Shown: positions 3,204-29,701 of the stretch, one piece after another | Numbering within the stretch: the stretch's first letter is position 1 | How the letters are laid out: every line of letters begins with the position of its first letter | From: Gemmatimonadota bacterium | GTDB lineage: Bacteria; Gemmatimonadota; Gemmatimonadetes; Gemmatimonadales; GWC2-71-9 | Direction: 5' to 3' | NCBI GenBank assembly: GCA_003221035.1 | Contig: QHUB01000030.1 | Location: 28,763-92,762, forward strand | Length of the DNA stretch: 64,000 nt | Program-made: the position numbers and the translations under genes | Notes under the pieces: generated by a model | The model's database searches: none | What the model saw: the letters and a program-made list of their open reading frames with translations, nothing else | Told to the model about the DNA's origin: nothing

Positions 3204-3227
3204 CGAGCCTTGAAGACCGGCGTGGAA

Positions 3228-4103
3228 TTAATCCGTCGCGCGGATTCGCCGGGCACGGTCCCACAGGGCGGCGACCCCGAGCTGCCGCGCGAGTTCCTCG
3301 AATTCCGGCGTGGGACCGTGCCACCGCAGGTCCTCGATGGTCGAGAAGACGGGTACGTCGGTTCGCAGCGTGGCGAGCGTGCGAAACAGCACCGCGAGCG
3401 CGCGATGCGCTTCGAGCGCGGCGGCGAGCCGCGCGGCGCCACGTACCGGCAGCTCCCATTGCTTGCAGTCGGCGGGGATTTTTTCGAGATGACGGTAGCG
3501 ACCGAGCAGGGCACCTGACGCCTTCTCGCCCCAACCTGGAACGCCGGGGAAGCCATCGGCCGAATCGCCGACGAGCGCGAGGTAATCGGGAATCGATTCC
3601 GGCCCCACACCGAAGCGTGCGACCACGCCGGGCTCGTCGCGCGTCTCCCGCTTGCGCCGGTCGAACTGCACGACGCGCTGCCCACGCACGCACTGACTGA
3701 GATCTTTGTCGGGCGTACAGATGATCACTTGCTCGACCGCAGACGACTCGGCGGCCTTCTGCGCGGCGGCCGCGAGCGCATCGTCGGCCTCGAATTCCAC
3801 CATCGCCCAGACCGTGACGCCCAGAGCGCGCAGCGCGTCCTCGAGCGGGTGAAACTGCGCCAGCAGCTCGGGCTCGATCCCGGCGCTCGTCTTGTAGCCC
3901 GCCCACAGGTCGTTGCGAAACGACTCGATGACATGATCCGTCGCGACGCCGAGGTGTGTCGTGCCGCCTTCCAGCATGCCGAGGACCGAGCCCAGCACGC
4001 CGATGATCGCGCCGACTTCGTTTCCCCGGCTGTCGCTCTGGCGGGGCACGGCAAAGAAATGCCGGAACAGCTCGTAGGTGCCGTCGAGGAGATGAACTTT
4101 CAA
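3228..4103 (-). CDS. 5'-3' exonuclease (FEN/Pol I N-terminal domain family)
   Basis: Only the C-terminal 291 aa of track ORF 3228..4991 is homologous. Motifs are KVHLLDGTYELFR, EFEADDALAA and the H3TH motif VGDSADGFPGVPGWGEKSA. TTG start at 4103 overlaps the TGA of the upstream gene (CTTGA). Confidence 0.8.
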   Translation of the reverse strand: MKVHLLDGTYELFRHFFAVPRQSDSRGNEVGAIIGVLGSVLGMLEGGTTHLGVATDHVIESFRNDLWAGYKTSAGIEPELLAQFHPLEDALRALGVTVWAMVEFEADDALAAAAQKAAESSAVEQVIICTPDKDLSQCVRGQRVVQFDRRKRETRDEPGVVARFGVGPESIPDYLALVGDSADGFPGVPGWGEKASGALLGRYRHLEKIPADCKQWELPVRGAARLAAALEAHRALAVLFRTLATLRTDVPVFSTIEDLRWHGPTPEFEELARQLGVAALWDRARRIRATD

Positions 4104-9022: not shown

Positions 9023-9829
9023 ATGCGAACGCCTCTGGTCGTCGCGGTGGGGTTCCTCGCCGCGAGCGCAACGGCTCTGCTCGCCCATGATCTCTTTCTA
9101 AAGCTCGAGTCATACTTTATCCCGCCGAACACCCCGGTCACGGTGGCGGTACTCAACGGAAGCTTCTCGGCCAGCGAAGGCGCGGTGACGCCGGATCGGT
9201 TGCGCGACTTGAGTCTGGCAGGTCCGGAACGGCGGGTGGCGCTGTCACGTGACGGCTGGCGCGTGCAAGGCGACACGACGTGGCTGACGCTCACCACCGG
9301 CGGGGCCGGCACCTATGTCGTCGGCGCGTCGCTGTTCCCGCGCGAGATCACTTTGACTGCGGCACAATTCAACGACTATCTGAAAGAGGACGGCATTCCG
9401 GATGTGCTGGACGCGCGAGCGCGGGACGGCGAGCTGAACAAGGACGCCCGCGAGCGCTACCAGAAACATGTCAAAGCCGTTTTCCAGGTTGGCACCGCGC
9501 GGAGCACCGCATACGGGACCGTGTTCGGATATCCGGCCGAGCTTGTGCCGGTCACCAATCCCTATGCGGCCGGCGTGGGAGACACGCTGGCGTTCCGCGC
9601 CCTCGTGGATGGCCGACCCGCGGTCGATCAGCTCGTCATCGCCGGCGGCGAGCAGGATGGCAAGGCGCGTGACGAAGTGCGCGCGCGAAGCGATTCCACG
9701 GGTGTCGCCCGATTCGCCATCACTGGGCCGGGGAAGTGGTACATCAAGTTTATCCGGATGGTGCCCGTGCGCGGCGACAGCGTGAACTACGAATCGAAGT
9801 GGGCGACGTTGACCTTCCAGGTACGGTGA
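9023..9829 (+). CDS. DUF4198 domain-containing periplasmic protein
   Basis: Signal peptide followed by the AHDLFL mature N-terminus typical of DUF4198. Ig-like C-terminal part. Confidence 0.7.
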   Translation: MRTPLVVAVGFLAASATALLAHDLFLKLESYFIPPNTPVTVAVLNGSFSASEGAVTPDRLRDLSLAGPERRVALSRDGWRVQGDTTWLTLTTGGAGTYVVGASLFPREITLTAAQFNDYLKEDGIPDVLDARARDGELNKDARERYQKHVKAVFQVGTARSTAYGTVFGYPAELVPVTNPYAAGVGDTLAFRALVDGRPAVDQLVIAGGEQDGKARDEVRARSDSTGVARFAITGPGKWYIKFIRMVPVRGDSVNYESKWATLTFQVR

Positions 9830-19226: not shown

Positions 19227-19298
19227 GCCACCGTAGCTCAGCGGTAGAGCTCTCGATTCGTAATCGAGTGGTCGTCGGTTCAATTCCGACCGGTGGCT
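19227..19298 (+). tRNA. tRNA-Thr (anticodon CGT)
   Basis: Hand-folded cloverleaf: acceptor GCCACCG/CGGTGGC, D arm GCTC/GAGC, anticodon arm CTCGA-TTCGTAA-TCGAG, T arm GTCGG-TTCAATT-CCGAC, discriminator T. No encoded CCA. Confidence 0.9.
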
Positions 19299-19313
19299 CT
19301 TTCGGCAGGCCTC

Positions 19314-19342
19314 TTGACACATCCGACCAGAAGTGGAGATTG
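19314..19342 (+). promoter_or_regulatory. Candidate promoter of the leu/ilv operon
   Basis: Perfect TTGACA at 19314-19319. Weak -10 candidates (GAGATT/AGATTG) lie 16-17 nt downstream and are preceded by TG. Confidence 0.3.
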
Positions 19343-19353
19343 ATGGCTCGCAC

Positions 19354-19446
19354 ATGAACGCTTTCGCGCTGCTCCTTAGCCTCGTCCTGCTGCTGGGCCT
19401 TACGCTCAGCAGGGGGGTCGCGGCGCGCGCGGAGGTAAGAAGCTAG
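19354..19446 (+). CDS. Leu-rich leader peptide (30 aa)
   Basis: MNAFALLLSLVLLLGLTLSRGVAARAEVRS has 9 Leu in codons 6-18, including CTG CTG CTG. A terminator follows, then leuA. The ATG overlaps the TGA of a 4-codon mini-ORF (ATG 19343) that has GGAG upstream. Confidence 0.55.
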   Translation: MNAFALLLSLVLLLGLTLSRGVAARAEVRS

Positions 19447-19476
19447 AAGTCGCTCGAAAGACGAAGCAGGACCGGC

Positions 19477-19513
19477 GCCGCGAACCCAATCAGGTTCGCG
19501 GCTTTTTTGTTTT
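19477..19513 (+). terminator. Intrinsic terminator (attenuator) upstream of leuA
   Basis: GCCGCGAACC-caatca-GGTTCGCGGC (perfect 10-bp stem) followed by TTTTTTGTTTT. It ends 24 nt before the leuA ATG. Confidence 0.75.
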
Positions 19514-19536
19514 CTCATCGCGAAGTCGGGGGAACC

Positions 19537-21090
<1,554 letters not shown>

Positions 21091-21092
21091 CC

Positions 21093-22784
21093 ATGAGCCT
21101 CGAGCTGCTGACAGGCGCACAGATCCTGTGTCGCACACTGGTCGACGCGGGCGTCGAGGTCATGTTCGGCTATCCCGGCGGCGCCATCATGCCGTTTTAC
21201 GACGCGCTCCACGGCCACGCCGGCCTGCGACACATCCTCGTACGGCACGAGCAGGCGGCGGCCCACGCCGCCGATGGCTACGCCCGCGCCGGACAGCGCG
21301 TGGGTGTGTGCGTCGCGACCTCCGGGCCGGGCGCGACGAACCTCGTGACCGGGCTCGCCACCGCGCACATGGACGGCTCACCCGTGGTCGCCATCACGGG
21401 CCAGGTCGGCCGGCCGATGCTCGGCCGCGATGCGTTTCAGGAGACCGACGTCGTCGGCGTGACGATGCCGGTGACCAAGCACAACGTGCTGGTGCGCGAC
21501 GTCGAAGATCTCGCTGACGATGTGCGCGAGGCGATGGCGATCGCGATCGAGGGACGGCCGGGGCCCGTGCTCGTGGACGTGCCGAAGGATGTCCAGAACC
21601 AGAAAGCTGAATACCGGGAGTCAGGAGCCGGGAGTCGGGGATCGATGAAACCCCAGACTCCTGACTTCCGGCTCCTCGACGACGCCCTGAAGCAAGTCGC
21701 AAGTCTCATCGCCACCGCAGAGCGTCCCCTGCTCATGATCGGCCGCGGCGTCATCGTGAGCGGCGCATACGCGGAAGTCCGGGCGCTCGCCGAACGCACG
21801 GGCATGCCGGTGATCACCACGCTGCTCGGCATCAGCGCGTTCCCGCAGTCGCACGAGCTGCACCTCGGGATGCCGGGCATGCACGGCGAAGTCCACATCA
21901 ACAAGGCGATTCAATCCGCCGACTTGCTCGTCGGCATCGGCATGCGCTTCGACGACCGCGTGACGGGCAATACGGCCACCTTTGCCCCGCGCGCGAAGAT
22001 CGTGCACATCGATATCGACGGCGCCGCCATCGGTCGCACGGTGCGCTGCGACGTCGCGCTGGTCGGTGACGCTCGCGCCATCGTTCAACAGCTGCTCGCC
22101 GCAATCGCGCCGCGGGATTGCGTGCCCTGGCGGCAAGAGATTGCCGCGCTCATGCACCAGCGCGAAGAGTCGTTCGCGGGCGGGTTGTCGCCCGAAGTGA
22201 TCCTGTCGGCGCTCGCCGAGGTCACCGAGGGTCGCTGCACCATCGTGTCCGACGTCGGGCAGCATCAGATGTGGGTCGCCCAGCGCTATCCGTTCCAGCG
22301 GCCCAACACGCACATCACGTCCGGTGGACTGGGCGCGATGGGATTCGCCGTGCCCGCCGCGATGGGCGTGCGCCTGGCGCGACCCGACGAGCCGGTCTGG
22401 GCGATCTCGGGCGACGGCGGCTTTCAGATGAACATGGCGGAGATCGCGACGATGGTGCAGGAAGGCATCGAAGTGAAGCTCGCGATCTTCAACAACGGGT
22501 ACCTCGGCATGGTGCGGCAGTGGCAGCAGTTCTTCCATGGCGGCCGCTACTCGAACACGCCGATCTGGAGCCCGGACTATGTAAAGCTGGCCGCGGCGTA
22601 CGGAATTCCCGGCTGGCGCGTGAAGCATGCCGGTGAAGTGACGGACGTGCTCCAGGAGGCGAACGCCACGCCCGGCCCCACGCTCGTCGAGCTGGTGATC
22701 GAGCAGGAAGCCAACGTCTTCCCGATGATCGTCCCGGGCGGATCACTCTCCGAGCCGCTCGAAGCGGCTCCGGCCCAAACATGA
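21093..22784 (+). CDS. ilvB: Acetolactate synthase (AHAS) large subunit
   Basis: Start at [35 protein letters not shown] motif [16 protein letters not shown]. The upstream part of track ORF 20214..22784 is an out-of-gene extension. Confidence 0.95.
21615..21678. repeat. Long imperfect palindrome inside ilvB (GGGAGTC-type element)
   Basis: CCGGGAGTCAGGAGCCGGGAGTCGGGG-atcgatgaaa-CCCCAGACTCCTGACTTCCGGCTCC. Shares the 11-mer CGGGAGTCGGG and the 9-mer CTCCTGACT with the hairpin at 50779-50832. Confidence 0.6.
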
Positions 22785-24151
22785 ACGCGTCGCGCCGCGT
22801 CACCGTCCTGCTCCGTGACGATCTGTTGACGCTGGGCCGCGCGTGCAGCGTCTTGCGCCGGCGCAACATGCCGATTCACGATTTCGCGGTCGCCTCGCCG
22901 TCACCCGGCATGTGGCGGATGACCTGCGCGATCGACGTCGATGATCCGACCGCCGAGAATCTCGCGCTGTTGATGCAGAATGTGGTTGGCGTGAAGCAGG
23001 CCACCATTGGTGTACCGGCGCCCGACCAATTGCCTCTGCCCCCAGAACCATCCTCACCTTCCGGAGATATCATGAGCGCACCCGTGCGCATCTATTACGA
23101 GAAAGACACCGATCCTGCCCGCCTCACGGATCGGACGTTCGCGATCATCGGGTACGGCAGCCAGGGACATGCCCATGCGCTGAACCTGCGCGACTCGGGC
23201 GCCCGCGTGATCGTCGGACTGCGGCCGAATGGCGCGTCGTGGAAACGCGCGGAGGCCGATGGCCTCGAGGTGCAGCCAGTGGCCGATGCCGCGGAAGCGG
23301 GCGACGTCATCATGCTCCTCGTGCCCGATCCGGAGCAGCGCGCGGTGTACGAAACCGCCGTGTTGCCGGCGCTGCGAGAGGGGAAGACGTTGATGTTCGC
23401 GCACGGCTTCAACATCCACTTCGGCGAGATCAAGCCGCCGCCCGGCGTCGATGTCTCGATGATCGCGCCCAAGTCTCCGGGTCATCTCGTGCGCAGCGAG
23501 TTCCAGGCGGGCCGCGGCGTGCCGGGTCTCGTGGCCATCCATCAGAACGCCAGCGGGAAGGCGCTCGAGAACGCGCTCGCGTACGGCACCGGTATCGGCT
23601 GTACGCGCGCCGGTGTGCTCGCCACCACGTTCGCCGAGGAAACCGAAACCGATCTGTTCGGGGAGCAGGCGGTGCTGTGCGGCGGCGTGACCGCGCTCAT
23701 CCAGGCCGGGTTCGAGACGCTGACCGAAGCGGGATACGCGCCGGAGATGGCGTACTTCGAATGTCTCCACGAGCTGAAGCTGATCGTGGATCTGATCTAC
23801 CGCGGTGGACTCGGCTTCATGCGCCACTCGATCAGCGATACGGCCGAGTACGGCGATCTGACCCGCGGCGAGCGCGTGATCAGCCCGGCGGTGCGTGAGG
23901 AAATGCGCCGCTTGTTGGCCGACATCCGCAGCGGCGTGTTTGCCAGGGAATGGATCGCCGAGTGTCGCAACGGCGCGCCCAAGTTCAACGAGCTGCGTCG
24001 CGCCGCGAAAGAGCATCAGATTGAGCAGGTCGGCGCGCGGCTGCGCGCGATGATGCCGTGGACCGAAGAGGGCAAGGGGGCGCAGGCTGGTCGCGCACGG
24101 CCGGTGGCAGGGGTGCAGCATGCTGCGCCCCTACAATCTTCGCGCGCGTGA
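22781..24151 (+). CDS. Single ORF: IlvN-like ACT domain, Pro/Ser linker, ketol-acid reductoisomerase (no intervening stop)
   Basis: ATGA overlap with the ilvB stop. Residues 1-76 resemble an AHAS small-subunit ACT domain ([33 protein letters not shown]...[11 protein letters not shown]...VVGVKQATI). Linker [21 protein letters not shown], then KARI in the same frame. Confidence 0.6.
23072..24151 (+). CDS. ilvC: Ketol-acid reductoisomerase (class I), independently initiable core
   Basis: GGAG at 23063-23066, 5 nt before ATG 23072. [12 protein letters not shown]...[19 protein letters not shown], and [17 protein letters not shown]. Confidence 0.9.
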
Positions 24152-25545
24152 CGAAGACGCTGTTCGAACGCGTCTGGGCGTCGCACGTCGTCAAGCAGCT
24201 CACGGACGACGTGGCGCTGCTGTATGTCGATCTGCATCTGATTCACGAAGTGACGTCGCCGCAGGCATTTGCAGGATTGAAGCGCGAGGGCCGCGCGGTA
24301 CGACGGCCCGAGCGCACGCTGGCGACGGTGGATCACAGCATCCCGACCGGTGATCGCTCGCTCCCGATCGCCGACGCCGTCGCGGCCCGTCAAGTCGACG
24401 TGCTCGGCGGCAACGCGCGGGAATTCGGGATCGAGCTGTTTGACCTCACGTCGCCGGGGCAGGGCATCGTCCACGTGATCGGTCCGGAGCTCGGCGCGAC
24501 GCAGCCCGGCATGGTGATCGTGTGCGGCGACTCGCACACGGCGACCCACGGCGCGTTCGGGGCGTTCGCGATCGGCATCGGCACGAGCGAGGTGGAGCAC
24601 GTGCTGGCGACGCAATGCATCGCGCTCTCCAAGCCACGCACCCTGGAAGCGCGCTTTACCGGGAGCCGGGGGCCGGGAGTGGGGGCTAAGGACTTGATCC
24701 TGGCGCTCATCGGGAAGATCGGCACGGCCGGCGCGACGGGACATGTCATCGAGTACACGGGCGAAGCGATCCGCGCGCTCTCGATGGAAGAGCGGATGAC
24801 GGTGTGCAACATGTCGATCGAGGCCGGCGCGCGCGCCGGGATGATCGCGCCCGATGATGTGACATTTGCGTATCTGAAGGGACGACCGCGGGTGCACACC
24901 GGTGAGGCGTGGACCAAAGACGTCGCGCGCTGGCGTAGACTCCGAAGCAATTCAGGAGCGCGCTACGACACGCAGGTCATGCTCGATGCATCGAGAATTG
25001 GACCGCAAGTCACGTGGGGGACGACTCCCGGCATGGTCGCTGACATCACGGCGCGCGTGCCGGATCCCGCGGCGCTGGGCACCGACGCCGAGCGCCACGC
25101 GGCCCAGCGCGCGCTGCAATACATGGGGCTCGAGCCTGGAACGCCGCTCGCCGGCATTCCGATCGATCGCGTGTTCCTCGGCTCCTGCACGAATGCCCGT
25201 ATCGAAGACCTGCGCGCCGCGGCCGGCGTGGTGCGCGGCCGCCACGTGGCGGCGCGCGTGCGCGCCATGGTGGTGCCCGGCTCGCAGCGCGTGAAAGCGC
25301 AAGCGGAAGCGGAGGGCCTCGATCAGGTATTCCGCGAAGCCGGGTTCGAGTGGCGCAACGCGGGCTGCTCGATGTGTCTCGGCATGAATGACGACATCCT
25401 GGGCGCCGGCGAGCGCTGCGCCGCGACGTCGAACCGCAATTTTGAAGGGCGCCAGGGACGCGGCGGCCGGACGCATCTCATGAGCCCGATGATGGCGGCA
25501 GCGGCGGCCATCGAAGGCCATCTCGTGGACGTGCGCGGATGGTGA
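24148..25545 (+). CDS. leuC: 3-isopropylmalate dehydratase large subunit
   Basis: GTG start (GTGA overlap with the ilvC stop). V(M)[14 protein letters not shown]...[15 protein letters not shown]. Cys ligand regions CNMSIE and [11 protein letters not shown]...GCSMCLGMN. Confidence 0.95.
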
Positions 25546-26126
25546 AGCCGTTCACCCAGCACCGGGGCCGCCTGGTCACGTTGCCGCGGCGCGACGTCGA
25601 TACCGATCAGATCATCCCCAAGCAGTTTCTGAAAGGCATCGAGCGGACCGGCTTCGGGCCCGCGCTGTTCTGCGATTGGCGCTACCGGCCCGACGGCTCG
25701 CCCGACCCCGGCTTCGAGCTCAACAGTCCGGCGGCGGAGGGCGCGACGATTCTGGTGACCGGTCCGAACTTCGGTTGCGGGTCTTCGCGCGAGCACGCCG
25801 TGTGGGCGCTCGCCGAATACGGATTCCGTGCCGTCATCGCGCCATCCTTCGCGGACATCTTCACCTCGAACTGTTATCGCAACGGTCTTCTGCCGGTACG
25901 CCTGCCGGCACCGGAGGTGGATGCGCTGATCCGGAGCACCGAAGGCGGAATCCATGAACTGACGATCGATCTCGAGAAACAGCTCATCACGGACGATCGC
26001 GGATTCAAGACGGGGTTCCGCGCTGATCCATACGGCCGCGAGCTGCTGCTGCGCGGTCTCGACGAAATCGGACGGACGCTGCTGGACGAGCCGAGTATCG
26101 CGGCGTATGAGCGGAGACACCCATGA
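25539..26126 (+). CDS. leuD: 3-isopropylmalate dehydratase small subunit
   Basis: [31 protein letters not shown]. Confidence 0.95.
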
Positions 26127-27208
26127 AGACATACCGCATCGCCGTGCTCTCCGGAGACGGCATCGGACCTGAAGTCATCGCGCAGGCGGTGCGCGTGTTG
26201 GAGGCGGTCGGCGAACGATTCGCGATTCGCTTTGCGCTCGACGCCCTTCCGGTCGGCGCGGCGGGTGTGCGCGCGGCGAACAATCCACTGCCGCCCGAGA
26301 CGCGCGTGGCAGTCACTCGAAGTGATGCGGTGTTGCTCGGTGCCGTGGGCGATCCGTCCTTGGACACCGCCCCCCGCGAGCTCAAGCCGGAGACCGGCCT
26401 GCTCGCGCTGCGCAAGCTGTTGAACGTCTACGCCAATCTGCGGCCCGTGGCGCTTCACCCGGCGCTCGCGGCGTGCTCGCCGCTCAAGCCCAATCGGCTC
26501 CGCGGCGTGGATCTGCTCGTCGTGCGCGAGCTGACGGGCGGGCTCTACTATGGAGAGCCGCGCGGCCGAAACGGCACCCGCGCCGTCAATACGCTTACCT
26601 ATACGACTGCCGAAATCGAACGTATCGCGCGCGTCGCATTCGAGGCGGCGCGTCCCCGCAGACGATTGGTCACGTCTGTGGACAAGGCGAACGTGCTCGA
26701 GGTGTCCCAGCTGTGGCGGGAGACGGTGACGGCGGTCGCGCGTGCCTTCCCGGATGTGCGCCTCGAGCACTCCTACGTCGATACCGCCGCCATGCGCCTC
26801 GTCAGCGATCCGGCGTCGCTCGACGTCGTGCTGACCGAGAACATGTTCGGCGACATCCTGAGCGACGAAGCCGCCGTACTGGCCGGATCGCTCGGCCTGC
26901 TGCCTTCTGCTTCGCTCGGCGACGGACCTGGACTGTTCGAGCCTGTGCACGGCTCGGCGCCGCCGCTGGCGGGCCGGGACGTCGCCAATCCCCTCGGCGC
27001 GATTGCGACCGTCGGTCTGTTGTTGCGGCACGGTCTGCACCTGCCCGAGGCCGCGGATGCGGTGGACCAGGCGGTCGCCGCGGCGCTCGAGGCCGGCGCG
27101 CGCACGGAGGACATCGCTCACGCCGGCGAGCAGATTATCGGCACGAAGGAGATGGGAGCGCGGATAGTGGAGCTGGTATTGGCCGAGGCACTCGAGGGAC
27201 TGTCATGA
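26123..27208 (+). CDS. leuB: 3-isopropylmalate dehydrogenase
   Basis: [42 protein letters not shown] overlaps on both sides. Confidence 0.95.
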
Positions 27209-28887
27209 CGGGGAAGGACAATTTCCGCAGCAAGGCGATCACCGAAGGATTGGAGCGCGCCCCGAACCGGGCGATGCTGCGCGCGGTGGGCTTTCGCGAC
27301 GGTGATTTCGGCAAGCCGATCGTCGGTGTCGCGAGCGCGCACAGCACCATCACGCCCTGCAATGCCGGGTTGGACCGATTGGCGAAGCGGGCGGAGCAGG
27401 CGCTGCGCGAAGCCGGCACGATGCCCCAGACATTCGGCACGATCACCGTCAGCGACGGCATCTCGATGGGGACCGAGGGCATGCGCTATTCGCTCGTGTC
27501 GCGCGAGGTGATCGCCGACTCGATCGAGACGGCGTGCGGCGCGCAGCGCATGGACGGACTGGTCGCGATCGGCGGGTGCGACAAGAATATGCCGGGCGCT
27601 TTGATCGCGATCGCGCGACTCGATATCCCCGCGGTCTTCGTCTACGGCGGCACGATCAAGCCCGGGCACTTCGGCGGCCGCGATCTCACGGTGGTCAGTG
27701 TGTTCGAGGCGGTCGGCGCGGCCGGGGCGGGGCGCATGCCCGAGAGCGAGCTGCTCGAGATCGAGCGCCGAGCCTGTCCCGGCGCCGGCTCCTGCGGCGG
27801 CATGTTCACCGCGAACACGATGTCGTCCGCAATCGAAGCGCTCGGCATGAGCCTCCCCGGCACCTCGACCATGGCGGCAGAGGATCAGGAAACGGCGGAC
27901 GCCGCTGAGCGCGCCGGGCAGGTTCTGGCGGCGGCGGTGCGGGCGCGGCGCACACCGCGCCAGATCCTCACGCGCAAGGCGTTCGAAAACGCGATCGCCG
28001 TCGTCATGGCGATCGGTGGCTCCACAAACGCGGTCCTGCATCTGCTCGCGATTGCCCGGGCCGCCGGCGTGCCACTCGTGATCGACGACTTCGAGACGAT
28101 TCGCGCGCGCGTGCCCGTACTGTGCGATCTGAAGCCCTCCGGGCGCTACGTCGCGACCGATCTGCATCGTGCGGGGGGAATTCCGCAGGTCATGAGCATC
28201 CTCCTGGCGAACGGCGTGCTCCACGGTGACGCGCTGACGATCGACGGCCGATCTGTTGCCGAGGTGTTGAAAGAAACCCCGTCGACGCCGTCGCCGAGCC
28301 AGGACGTGATTCATCCGTGGGCCACGCCGCTCGCGCCGACGGGGCACATCGTGATCTTGCGCGGCAACCTCGCGCCTGAAGGCGCCGTCGCCAAAGTCAG
28401 CGGCAACGGTTCGCACCGAATCACCGGACCCGCGCGGGTTTTCGACTCCGAGGAGGCATGCCTTGCCGCGATTCTCGCGGGCGGTGTGAAGCAGGGCGAC
28501 GTCGTCATCATCCGCTACGAAGGTCCGAAGGGCGGACCCGGGATGCGCGAGATGCTTGCACCCACGGCGGCGCTCATCGGCGCGGGATTGGGGGAGAGCG
28601 TCGGCCTCATCACCGACGGGCGGTTCTCCGGCGGCTCGCATGGACTCGTCGTCGGGCACGTCGCGCCGGAAGCGGCGCTGGGCGGTCCGCTCGCCCTGGT
28701 CCGGGAAGGCGACTCCGTCACGATCGACGCGGGCAAACGCCGGCTCGAGATCAACATTTCCGAGCAAGAGCTCGCCGTGCGCCGGACCCGGTGGCAGCCC
28801 CCGCCGCCGCGCTACACCGCCGGCGTGCTGGCGAAATACGCTCGCCTCGTCTCCAGCAGCAGTGAGGGCGCGGTCACCGATGGTTGA
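27205..28887 (+). CDS. ilvD: Dihydroxy-acid dehydratase
   Basis: Start at [30 protein letters not shown]. The track ORF 26473..28887 N-terminus is an artefactual extension over leuB. Confidence 0.95.
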
Positions 28888-29701
28888 TTGCGTCGCGATT
28901 CAGGGTGAAGCGGGGTCGTTCAGTCACGCGGCCGCGCTCGAGATGCACGGTCCCACCCTCGAGCTCGTCACCTGTCCCACGTTTGTGGAGCTGTTTCGGG
29001 CGGTCGAAACGGGAAGGGCCACGCGCGGCATGGTGCCGATCGAGAACACGCTCGCGGGCTCGGTCCACGAGAACTACGACTTGCTCAGCGCCCACGTCCT
29101 GCACGTCGTCTCCGAGACCGCGCTGCGCATTCGCCACTGCCTGATCGCTCCGCCGCGCACCACCCTGGCTGAGATCCGGCGCGTTGCCTCACACCCGGTC
29201 GCGCTGGCGCAGTGCCGCCAGTTCTTCCTGGCCCATCCGGGCGTCGAGGCAGTGCCGGCGTACGACACGGCCGGCAGCGTGCGCGATGTCATGTCCGGGA
29301 ATGTCGCGGCCGACGCGGCCATCGCGTCGAAGCTCGCGGCGGATCTGTACGGCGCCGATGTCGTCGTCGAGGGGCTGGAGGATCACGCCGAGAATTACAC
29401 GCGCTTTCTCGTGGTCGCGCGCGAACCCGCGGGGCGCGAGCCGGCGCGGCCCAACAAGACGTCGCTGATCGTGTCGCTTGGCAATACGCCCGGCTCGCTG
29501 TATCGGGCGCTGGGCGTCTTCGCCGACCGCGGATTGAACCTGACCAAGATCGAATCCCGGCCGCTCCCGGGGCGCCCGTGGCAGTACCTCTTCTACCTCG
29601 ATGTCGTCGATGGCGGCAACGGACTCGTGGAGGCGCTCGAAGCGCTGCGGCCCTTCACGTCCAGTATCCGCGTCCTCGGGACCTATCCCGCGCGCGACTA
29701 G
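28880..29701 (+). CDS. pheA: Prephenate dehydratase (with C-terminal ACT domain)
   Basis: [40 protein letters not shown] motif ([21 protein letters not shown]). 8-nt overlap with the ilvD end. Confidence 0.9.

What the first reader, a model, noticed from the sequence alone, without database searches (positions are those of the whole stretch)
19314..19536. Leucine-rich leader peptide with terminator/antiterminator: candidate translational attenuator in front of a merged leu/ilv/pheA operon
Several elements sit between tRNA-Thr and leuA.
- A perfect TTGACA.
- A 4-codon mini-ORF (ATG 19343, GGAG upstream) whose TGA overlaps the ATG of a 30-codon ORF (19354-19446).
- That ORF has 9 Leu in codons 6-18, including three consecutive CTG.
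- A perfect 10-bp GC stem plus TTTTTTGTTTT (19477-19513), ending 24 nt before the leuA ATG.

The segment GGGTCGCGGCGC (19415-19426, leader codons 21-25) can pair with the 5' arm region of the terminator (19475-19487) over 12 bp with one bulged A. This gives a mutually exclusive antiterminator.

Proposed model: a ribosome stalled on the Leu run leaves 19415-19426 free, so the antiterminator forms. A ribosome that reaches the stop codon masks it, so the terminator forms.

Leader-peptide attenuation of leu operons is established in enterobacteria (leuL). I do not know of it being described for this kind of high-GC lineage, nor as the control point of a 10-kb leuA-ilvB-ilvN/C-leuCDB-ilvD-pheA unit.
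Basis: partly seen in the sequence, partly recalled or inferred. Interest (0 to 1): 0.62.

Follow-up and report, generated by a model that had tools for sequence, protein, structure and literature searches.

The report
Leucine leader-peptide attenuator before leuA operon
A short leucine-rich reading frame followed by a switchable terminator sits before an eight-gene amino-acid biosynthesis operon of an uncultured soil Gemmatimonadales bacterium; this is the textbook ribosome-stalling attenuator, conserved across a phylum where I found no earlier description of it.

Summary
The 30-codon ORF (19354-19446) holds the only 13-codon stretch with at least 9 Leu among 103,009 in the window. The hairpin at 19477-19502 plus T-tract is the only perfect GC-rich terminator in 64 kb.

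The organism is an uncultured soil Gemmatimonadales. About 28 other Gemmatimonadota leuA loci carry the same layout: TTGACA promoter, a 26-35 codon Leu/Ile/Val-rich ORF, a conserved segment R2 in the ORF's 3' part, and a terminator (arms R3 and R4).

- Conserved run positions are codon positions 1 and 2 of CTN/NTN codons.
- The rare codon CTT is enriched about tenfold.
- One R3 base covaries with both its R4 and its R2 partner.
- Ribosome-masked folding gives R2:R3 pairing of 0.02 without a ribosome, 0.83-0.89 (0.58 at codon 16) with the A site on codons 6-17, and about 0 from codon 18 to the stop.

The operon is eight tightly packed reading frames (leuA to pheA).

This is a new, Rfam-absent member of a known mechanism. 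All evidence is in silico.

The parts
19314..19319 (+). Probable -35 hexamer TTGACA of the operon promoter
   Evidence: Read. TTGACA or TTGACN is present upstream of the leader in nearly all related loci. Its function is inferred.
19336..19341 (+). Probable -10 hexamer GAGATT, inside the conserved block GTGGAGATT, 16 nt after the -35
   Evidence: The block and its 16-nt spacing are conserved in L002 and L081-L084, while the spacer sequence varies. More distant relatives have TTGACA-N17-TA(A/G/T)CCT. The consensus scan did not call it. It is an inference, and the alternative reading is a distant ribosome-binding site.
19343..19357 (+). 4-codon mini-ORF (MART*), probably fortuitous
   Evidence: Present in the window. 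Among the six closest sequences only the window and L081 have a mini-ORF. It lies between the probable -10 and the predicted transcription start.
19354..19446 (+). Leader-peptide ORF, 30 codons plus TAG: MNAFALLLSLVLLLGLTLSRGVAARAEVRS
   Evidence: Gene callers list it as a 30-residue protein with no Pfam hit on identical soil-metagenome contigs. Equivalent 26-35 codon ORFs occur in about 28 related loci.
19369..19407 (+). Regulatory codon run: 9 Leu (4 CTG, 3 CTC, 2 CTT) plus 1 Val in codons 6-18
   Evidence: It is the only window of this kind in 64 kb. Invariant or near-invariant columns fall on codon positions 1 and 2 of codons 6, 7, 11-14 and 16. CTT makes up 2.3% of Leu codons in the operon genes against 2 of 9 here and 54 of 237 in relatives.
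19389..19411 (+). Inner hairpin (9 bp, loop CUUAC) formed by the Leu codons and the following codons; possible pause and anti-antiterminator element
   Evidence: -15.6 kcal/mol. RNAalifold predicts it independently, with compensatory changes in 3-4 pairs.
19414..19428 (+). R2, the 5' strand of the antiterminator (leader codons 21-25)
   Evidence: Pairs with 19474-19487. 86% of alignment cells are paired against 34-51% when the partner is slid. An 8-nt block is conserved at all three codon positions.
19474..19487 (+). R3, shared strand: 3' strand of the antiterminator and 5' arm of the terminator
   Evidence: The base at 19483 covaries with both partners: R4 pairs GC 12, AU 8, GU 4; R2 pairs CG 14, UA 7, UG 2.
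19477..19502 (+). Intrinsic terminator hairpin (10 bp, loop CAATCA)
   Evidence: -20.7 kcal/mol for 19475-19504. 92% of alignment cells are paired against about 41% when slid.
19503..19513 (+). T-tract TTTTTTGTTTT of the terminator
   Evidence: Conserved in relatives.
19528..19533 (+). Shine-Dalgarno-like GGGGGA of leuA, outside the switch
   Evidence: Read. Relatives have GGAGGAG or GGGGGA at the same place.
19537..29701 (+). Controlled operon: leuA 19537-21090, ilvB 21093-22784, ilvN-like-ilvC 22781-24151, leuC 24148-25545, leuD 25539-26126, leuB 26123-27208, ilvD 27205-28887, pheA 28880-29701
   Evidence: NCBIfam hits reach the curated cut-off of at least one model for every protein. Junctions are 4-8 nt overlaps or a 2-nt gap. 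The same order is found in L081, L082, L084 and L097. The next gene is convergent.

Best explanation
This is a classical ribosome-mediated (leader-peptide) transcription attenuator. It sets how many transcripts started at the TTGACA promoter continue into the leuA-ilvB-ilvN/C-leuCDB-ilvD-pheA operon.

Proposed sequence of events:
1. RNA polymerase transcribes the leader while a ribosome translates the 30-codon ORF.
2. When charged tRNA-Leu (and, in relatives, tRNA-Val and tRNA-Ile) is scarce, the ribosome stalls on the Leu run (codons 6-17). This holds the upstream strand and leaves R2 (19414-19428) free.
3. R2 pairs with R3 (19474-19487) as soon as R3 emerges. The terminator 19477-19502 then cannot form, and polymerase reads through into leuA.
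4. When leucine is plentiful, the ribosome runs through codons 18-30. It covers R2 and, after release, lets R2 be recaptured by upstream sequence. R3 then pairs with R4 and transcription stops at the T-tract.
5. Without translation, in this genome, the -47 kcal/mol hairpin 19360-19436 sequesters R2 and the terminator forms.

Shown here: the sequence elements, their conservation and covariation, and the in silico positional logic. Inferred: that the ORF is translated, that the terminator works, that the response is to leucine, and that the choice is kinetic.
For: - **Uniqueness.** The Leu run and the terminator are each unique in 64 kb. They lie 70 nt apart, directly before leuA.
- **Conservation.** The layout is kept in about 28 other Gemmatimonadota loci whose LeuA identity runs from 90% down to 55%. 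The ORF stop lies 79-128 nt before leuA.
- **Coding signature.** Conserved positions in the run are T at codon position 2 and C at position 1, while third positions vary. Lineages that use CTT/CTC instead of CTG still encode Leu.
- **Rare codons.** CTT is 2.3% of Leu codons in the operon genes but 22-23% in the leaders, and 50-80% in some lineages.
- **Terminator.** 92% of cells are paired against about 41% when slid.
- **Antiterminator.** 86% of cells are paired against 34-51% when slid.
- **Covariation.** The R3 base at 19483 covaries with both partners. A distant clade (L008-L010, L098) has a different terminator arm, GCCCTCTC, and a matching R2, GAGAGGGC.
- **R2:R3 strength.** -29.4 kcal/mol, top 0.18% of control windows.
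- **Positional logic.** On the transcript ending at 19492, P(R2:R3) is 0.02 with no ribosome. It is 0.83-0.89 (0.58 at codon 16) with the A site on codons 6-17, 0.00 on codons 18-30 and 0.03 at the stop. The same drop right after the hydrophobic run is seen in most of the 29 loci; it is weak or absent in a few such as L002, L009 and L012.
- **Conformer energies.** The gap favouring the terminator shrinks from 15.2 kcal/mol with no ribosome to 0.5-5.7 with a ribosome on codons 8-13.
- **Operon.** Reading frames are tightly packed and no other terminator is found, so one control point is plausible.
- **Match to operon content.** Relatives with a pure leuABCD operon have Leu-only leaders. Relatives with the merged operon mix Leu, Val and Ile.
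Against: - There are no experimental data of any kind: translation, termination and leucine response are all untested.
- The leader ORF has no convincing Shine-Dalgarno sequence. Translation would need leaderless or short-leader initiation, or a GGAG 15 nt upstream.
- At equilibrium on the full transcript, the terminator conformer is always at least as stable as the antiterminator conformer. The model therefore relies on co-transcriptional kinetics that I could not simulate.
- The outer R1:R2 helix that silences R2 without translation is poorly conserved, at 35-57% of cells paired. In about half of the relatives the untranslated leader is predicted to favour R2:R3.
- Most stem positions are invariant, so they say nothing for or against pairing.
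- The sequences are related, so shuffle-based covariation numbers overstate significance.
Confidence: 0.85

Rival explanations
1. The 30-codon ORF encodes a functional small hydrophobic (membrane) peptide. The hairpin is simply the terminator of that small gene, and leuA is transcribed from elsewhere.
For: - The peptide is hydrophobic and looks like a transmembrane segment or signal peptide.
- Gene callers list it as a protein.
- ORFs of similar length and composition recur in relatives.
Against: - The amino-acid sequence is not conserved beyond 'Leu/Ile/Val-rich'.
- The conserved C-terminal part is conserved at nucleotide level in all three codon positions, and it matches the terminator arm.
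- No promoter-like site lies between the terminator and leuA, which are 23 nt apart.
- Rare-codon enrichment is the opposite of what an expressed protein would show.
- The element always accompanies leuA.
- No Pfam hit.
Confidence: 0.04
2. The switch is independent of translation. The Leu-codon-like CUG repeats are only one strand of an RNA helix, and the terminator/antiterminator choice is set by a protein, a tRNA or a small molecule. Alternatively, the hairpin is a constitutive terminator for tRNA-Thr or upstream transcripts.
For: - CUGCUGCUG pairs with CAGCAG in the conserved inner hairpin.
- The ORF lacks a clear ribosome-binding site.
- In Actinobacteria the leuA 'LEU element' has a Leu uORF whose mutational behaviour did not fit classical attenuation (PMC1262725).
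- tRNA-Thr lies 15 nt upstream of the promoter.
Against: - Lineages whose run is CTT/CTC rather than CTG still encode Leu in the same frame, with a start codon and a stop at a conserved distance.
- Conservation has a period of three, on codon positions 1 and 2.
- No T-box or any other Rfam family matches.
- The tRNA is absent, or 110-770 nt away, in relatives that keep the leader and terminator.
Confidence: 0.07
3. It is a leader-peptide attenuator that reports general translation capacity, or several amino acids (Leu, Val, Ile and perhaps Phe), rather than leucine specifically.
For: - Relatives mix Leu, Val and Ile in the run. L006 has 5 Leu, 5 Ile and 5 Val.
- The operon makes all three branched-chain amino acids and carries pheA.
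- A Phe codon precedes the run in many leaders. Stalling at codon 4 gives P(R2:R3) of 0.56.
Against: - In this window 9 of the 13 codons 6-18 are Leu. There is only one Val and one Phe in the sensitive zone.
- Single codons give weak sensitivity in known attenuators (general knowledge; modelling in PMC1183508).
Confidence: 0.2

Closest known systems
Enterobacterial leu operon leader (leuL; Rfam Leu_leader RF00512)
   Same: - A short ORF (28 codons in E. coli, from my own knowledge) has a run of Leu codons that includes rare ones.
- A mutually exclusive antiterminator and terminator lie directly before leuA.
- The ribosome-stalling logic is the same.
   Different: - There is no detectable sequence or structure homology: the Rfam scan lists no Leu_leader match at E up to 10.
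- Here there are 9 dispersed Leu codons rather than 4 consecutive ones.
- The stop codon lies downstream of R2 rather than before it.
- The operon also carries ilv genes and pheA.
- The probable 5' UTR is very short and has no Shine-Dalgarno sequence.
S. aureus ilv-leu attenuator peptide (PMC5794164), with the Lactococcus leu leader it cites
   Same: A Leu/Ile-rich leader peptide plus terminator controls a long merged ilv-leu operon. The codons and the terminator are conserved across a genus.
   Different: - The phylum (Firmicutes) and the sequences are different.
- The proposed S. aureus antiterminator captures the poly-U tail rather than the 5' arm of the terminator.
- That system has a clear ribosome-binding site and an added CodY layer.
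- It has experimental support, which is lacking here.
Actinobacterial ilvB leader peptides and the leuA 'LEU element' (PMC1262725)
   Same: These are high-GC genomes with Leu/Val/Ile-rich upstream ORFs before ilvB and leuA. The ilvB leaders have GC-rich terminators with U-tracts.
   Different: - The actinobacterial leuA element is a pseudoknot in which the Leu run pairs with the leuA Shine-Dalgarno sequence, and it has no terminator.
- Here a canonical terminator and antiterminator are present, and the leuA Shine-Dalgarno sequence (19528-19533) lies outside the structure.
E. coli trp attenuator (the textbook 1:2 / 2:3 / 3:4 model; general knowledge)
   Same: There is a four-segment logic. In this window an upstream hairpin sequesters R2 when there is no translation, which mirrors 'superattenuation'. 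The choice is kinetic, as the terminator is thermodynamically favoured.
   Different: - A different amino acid is sensed.
- Many dispersed regulatory codons replace two tandem ones.
- The 1:2 element is only partly conserved among relatives.

Membership tests
Ribosome-mediated (leader-peptide) transcription attenuators (mechanistic class) | Short ORF in the 5' leader, enriched in codons for the pathway's end product | tested here: met
   9 Leu in 13 codons, unique in 64 kb. The ORF is conserved in about 28 loci with period-3 conservation, and rare CTT is enriched.
Ribosome-mediated (leader-peptide) transcription attenuators (mechanistic class) | Intrinsic terminator between the leader ORF and the first structural gene | tested here: met
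   A 10-bp GC stem plus T-tract at 19477-19513, ending 23 nt before leuA. 92% of cells are paired across 24 sequences.
Ribosome-mediated (leader-peptide) transcription attenuators (mechanistic class) | Alternative antiterminator helix that uses the 5' arm of the terminator | tested here: met
   R2 19414-19428 pairs with R3 19474-19487 at -29.4 kcal/mol, top 0.18% of controls. 86% of cells are paired against 34-51% when slid, and there is three-way covariation at 19483.
Ribosome-mediated (leader-peptide) transcription attenuators (mechanistic class) | Regulatory codons placed so that a stalled ribosome frees the antiterminator strand and a ribosome that runs on prevents it | tested here: met
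   In silico only. P(R2:R3) is 0.02 with no ribosome, 0.83-0.89 (0.58 at codon 16) on codons 6-17, and 0.00-0.03 from codon 18 to the stop. The same pattern appears in most relatives.
Ribosome-mediated (leader-peptide) transcription attenuators (mechanistic class) | The leader ORF is translated | not testable with these tools
   The start codon and reading frame are conserved, but there is no clear Shine-Dalgarno sequence. Ribosome profiling or reporter fusions are needed.
Ribosome-mediated (leader-peptide) transcription attenuators (mechanistic class) | Read-through rises when the cognate amino acid is limiting | not testable with these tools
   This needs Term-seq, Northern blots or reporters under leucine limitation.
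Rfam Leu_leader RF00512 (enterobacterial leuL) | Match to the family covariance model at its gathering score | tested here: not met
   The family is not listed at E up to 10 in the window. No family reaches its gathering score in the leaders of 11 relatives.
Rfam Leu/phe leader of Lactococcus (accession recalled from memory as RF01743) | Match to the family covariance model | tested here: not met
   Not listed among the matches. The scan covers all 4227 Rfam 15 families.
T-box leader (as on the B. subtilis ilv-leu operon) | T-box covariance model match (specifier loop, T-box sequence) | tested here: not met
   No T-box hit.
Actinobacterial LEU element (PMC1262725) | The Leu-codon run pairs with the leuA Shine-Dalgarno sequence within a pseudoknot, and no terminator is present | tested here: not met
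   A canonical terminator is present here, and the leuA Shine-Dalgarno sequence (19528-19533) lies 15 nt beyond the T-tract, outside every predicted helix.

The most novel reading that the evidence does not exclude
Gemmatimonadota carry a phylum-wide, so far undescribed and Rfam-absent family of branched-chain amino-acid attenuators with two unusual properties.
1. The leader peptide would be translated from a leaderless or 3-6 nt 5' UTR transcript. The ATG lies 6-12 nt after the -10 in the window's clade and in L007 and L096, and there is no Shine-Dalgarno sequence. Attenuation would then depend on leaderless initiation.
2. The mixed Leu/Val/Ile run, plus a recurrent Phe codon, would let a single switch integrate several amino acids for an operon that joins the leu and ilv genes with pheA.
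Probability: 0.25. Interest if true: 0.5.

Novelty: new member of a known kind. Interest (0 to 1): 0.33.

Why it matters
It extends classical leader-peptide attenuation to Gemmatimonadota, a widespread but barely studied soil phylum.

- As of 2010 such systems were said to be known only in Proteobacteria and Actinobacteria, with Firmicutes newly added (PMC2965389). The paper library holds nothing on them for Gemmatimonadetes.
- It gives annotators a reason to stop calling the 30-residue ORF a hypothetical protein.
- It provides a covariance model (R1) for finding the element.
- It offers a clean natural example of three-way covariation between alternative helices.
- It indicates that intrinsic termination works in a genome where canonical terminators otherwise seem very rare.

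The mechanism itself is textbook, so the conceptual gain is modest.

Tried and rejected
- **Rfam.** I scanned the window region at E up to 10 and 11 relatives at gathering score. Only the tRNA matched.
- **Consensus promoter scan.** It found no sigma-70 site. The promoter call rests on comparative conservation only.
- **Equilibrium folding of the full leader with a ribosome mask.** The terminator wins except at codons 8-10. I rejected this as the right model and used transcripts truncated before R4 instead.
- **Outer R1:R2 helix as a conserved anti-antiterminator.** Only 35-57% of cells are paired, so I do not claim it for the family.
- **Mini-ORF as a functional coupling device.** It is not conserved.
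- **Terminator as the tRNA-Thr terminator.** The tRNA is absent or distant in relatives.
- **Pfam.** No hits on the leader peptide or on the 97-residue N-terminal extension of IlvC.
- **Covariance model R1 over the window and 160 loci (1.6 Mb).** It found no second copy away from leuA.
- **Literature.** Searches for Gemmatimonadetes or Gemmatimonas with attenuation or leuA returned no papers.
- **Not attempted.** I did not look for the element in cultured Gemmatimonadota.

Full report
**What is in the sequence.**
- tRNA-Thr(CGT) lies at 19227-19299 and TTGACA at 19314-19319.
- A 4-codon mini-ORF starts at 19343, and its TGA overlaps the ATG at 19354.
- A 30-codon ORF at 19354-19446 encodes MNAFALLLSLVLLLGLTLSRGVAARAEVRS, with 9 Leu in codons 6-18.
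- A 10-bp G+C-rich hairpin at 19477-19502 is followed by TTTTTTGTTTT.
- The leuA ATG is at 19537, one base earlier than I first assumed.

These features are not background noise of a GC-rich genome.
- Among 103,009 stop-free 13-codon windows in six frames, the leader holds the only one with at least 9 Leu.
- The hairpin is the only perfect 8-bp-or-longer GC-rich stem with a T-rich tail on either strand of the 64 kb.
- The proposed antiterminator pairs R2 (19414-19428) with R3 (19474-19487) over 12-13 bp. It has a 1x1 G/A mismatch or, equally, a bulged A.
- Its duplex energy of -29.4 kcal/mol falls in the top 0.18% of 11,619 control windows of the same sequence.

**Organism and operon.** LeuA is 87-90% identical to proteins of soil Gemmatimonadales metagenome-assembled genomes. 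The identical protein occurs on 13 soil-metagenome contigs, where gene callers already list the 30-residue ORF as a protein with no Pfam hit.

Downstream lie leuA, ilvB, an ilvN-like domain joined to ilvC, leuC, leuD, leuB, ilvD and pheA. Each protein reaches the curated cut-off of at least one NCBIfam model. The frames are joined by 4-8 nt overlaps or a 2-nt gap. They end at 29701 against a convergent gene. No other terminator-like site was found in the operon. The same order occurs in L081, L082, L084 and L097.

**Comparative evidence.** I fetched leuA loci from species genomes and metagenomes. In about 28 further Gemmatimonadota loci, with LeuA identity from 90% down to 55%, the region before leuA has the same layout:
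- a TTGACA-type promoter;
- a 26-35 codon ORF with 7-12 Leu/Ile/Val in 13 codons in the Gemmatimonadales loci (5-7 in the distant clade);
- a stop 79-128 nt before leuA;
- a GC-rich terminator with a T-tract.

In the 24-sequence alignment A1, the conserved positions inside the run are T at codon position 2 (codons 6, 7, 11-14, 16) and C at codon position 1 (codons 12-14). Third positions vary. That is the signature of selection on Leu and other NTN codons. It is not the signature of a particular RNA sequence, because lineages that write the run with CTT/CTC rather than CTG still encode Leu.

CTT is rare in the operon genes (7 of 310 Leu codons, 2.3%). It makes up 2 of 9 Leu codons in this leader, 54 of 237 in the relatives, and 50-80% in several lineages. 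Rare regulatory codons are a known feature of attenuator leaders.

R2, by contrast, is conserved as a contiguous nucleotide block over all three codon positions. This is expected for an RNA pairing strand.

**Helices.**
- The terminator is paired in 92% of alignment cells, against about 41% when the partner column is slid.
- The antiterminator is paired in 86%, against 34-51% when slid.
- Most stem columns are invariant and therefore uninformative.
- The R3 base equivalent to 19483 varies A/G. It covaries with its R4 partner (GC 12, AU 8, GU 4) and with its R2 partner (CG 14, UA 7, UG 2).
- A distant clade (L008-L010, L098) has a different terminator arm, GCCCTCTC, and a matching R2, GAGAGGGC.
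- RNAalifold independently recovers the terminator and an inner hairpin (window 19389-19411) with compensatory changes.
- The longer helix that buries R2 in this window (19360-19436, -47 kcal/mol) is poorly conserved.

**Positional logic.** I masked a 28-nt ribosome footprint at each codon in turn. I folded the transcript up to 19492, so that R3 has emerged but R4 has not.

| Ribosome position | P(R2:R3) |
|---|---|
| No ribosome | 0.02 |
| A site on codons 6-17 | 0.83-0.89 (0.58 at codon 16) |
| A site on codons 18-30 | 0.00 |
| At the stop codon | 0.03 |

A looser version of the same scan shows the drop directly after the hydrophobic run in most of the 29 loci. It is weak or absent in a few, such as L002, L009 and L012.

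On the full transcript the terminator conformer is always at least as stable as the antiterminator conformer. The gap is 15.2 kcal/mol without a ribosome and 0.5-5.7 with a ribosome on codons 8-13. Antitermination must therefore be kinetic, as in the classical systems. I could not simulate this step.

- The mini-ORF is present in only two of the six closest sequences.
- Its 'GGAG' lies in a conserved GTGGAGATT block at a fixed 16 nt from TTGACA. More distant relatives have TTGACA-N17-TA(A/G/T)CCT at that place. I read it as the -10 element.
- That puts the transcription start only a few bases before the leader ATG, and the leader ORF has no clear Shine-Dalgarno sequence. This is an inference, and the main weakness of the translation claim.
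- A ribosome sitting exactly on the stop codon hardly covers R2. Masking happens while codons 18-30 are read, and upstream sequence recaptures R2 afterwards.
- The tRNA is not part of the device. It is absent, or 110-770 nt away, in relatives that keep the leader.

**Comparison with known systems.**
- No Rfam family matches, in the window or in 11 relatives. That includes the enterobacterial Leu leader, the Lactococcus leader and T-boxes.
- A covariance model built here (R1) finds the element only before leuA, in the training loci plus L098 and L154.
- Leader peptides are documented in Proteobacteria, Actinobacteria and Firmicutes (PMC2965389, PMC1262725).
- A Leu-rich leader controlling a merged ilv-leu operon is experimentally supported in S. 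aureus (PMC5794164).
- The actinobacterial leuA element works differently: it is a pseudoknot over the Shine-Dalgarno sequence with no terminator (PMC1262725).
- I found no paper linking Gemmatimonadetes with attenuation.

**Verdict.** This is a well-supported but purely in silico new member of a textbook mechanism, conserved across a little-studied phylum. The unusual points worth testing are the probable near-leaderless translation of the leader, the mixed Leu/Val/Ile content (with a recurrent Phe codon) in relatives, and the inclusion of pheA in the controlled operon.

Noticed in passing
window 22781-24151: A 97-residue ilvN-like N-terminal part is fused in frame to ilvC, with no stop codon between them. 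It resembles the ACT regulatory domain of the acetolactate synthase small subunit by eye, but has no Pfam hit. An internal ATG at 23072 is preceded by GGAG. The fusion is shared by L002, L081, L082, L084 and L097. L093 has a separate short ilvN and L089 a full-length one.
   Followed up: partly
window 1-64000: The attenuator terminator is the only perfect 8-bp-or-longer GC-rich hairpin with a T-rich tail on either strand of the 64 kb. Canonical intrinsic terminators therefore seem rare at gene ends in this genome.
   Followed up: no
window 19227-19299; L002, L081-L084: tRNA-Thr(CGT) is syntenic upstream of the leader in the window's clade. The gap from the tRNA to the leader ORF or its promoter ranges from 15 nt (window, to the -35) through about 110 nt (L083) to 400-770 nt (L002, L081, L082, L084). 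This suggests insertions or deletions next to the tRNA gene.
   Followed up: partly
L082 about 1140-1195; L084 about 3225-3275; L083 about 9745-9785: Tandem copies of a motif of about 11 nt, like AACCTC(G/C)ACC, lie directly upstream of the -35 in three close relatives but not in the window, where the tRNA sits instead. This could be a protein-binding array or an UP-like element.
   Followed up: no
window 19363-19365 and the equivalent position in relatives: A single Phe codon just before the Leu run recurs in many leaders of the merged-operon clade (AFAL, TFAL, PFAL, MFAAL), and that operon ends with pheA. Masking a ribosome at this codon gives P(R2:R3) of 0.56. A link to phenylalanine sensing is speculative.
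   Followed up: partly
L009, L010, L098: Distant Gemmatimonadota (Longimicrobiales-like) have a pure leu operon after the attenuator: leuA-leuB-leuC-leuD in L009 and L010, leuA-leuC-leuD in L098. The leaders of L009 and L010 have Leu as the only recurring regulatory codon, mostly the rare CTT. The merged leu/ilv clade mixes Leu, Val and Ile.
   Followed up: partly
L041, L118, L119, L141, L154 (upstream of leuA): Candidate Leu/Ile-rich small ORFs followed by terminator-like hairpins also occur before leuA in a few loci that are not assigned to Gemmatimonadota (L041 is an Acidobacteriota genome; the others are unassigned metagenome contigs). An example is ...ARILLGIIILILALI in L118 and L119. L154 scores 29.6 bits with model R1.
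   Followed up: partly
L164 (strain variant of the window), window positions 19386 and 19405: A near-identical soil contig differs in the leader at two positions. GTC to GTT is synonymous. CTC to TTC changes Leu18 to Phe and turns a G-C pair of the inner hairpin into G-U.
   Followed up: no
window 19455-19516: In the full-length fold, the A-rich stretch before the terminator stem pairs with the T-tract and extends the hairpin. I did not test whether this matters, for example for bidirectional termination.
   Followed up: no
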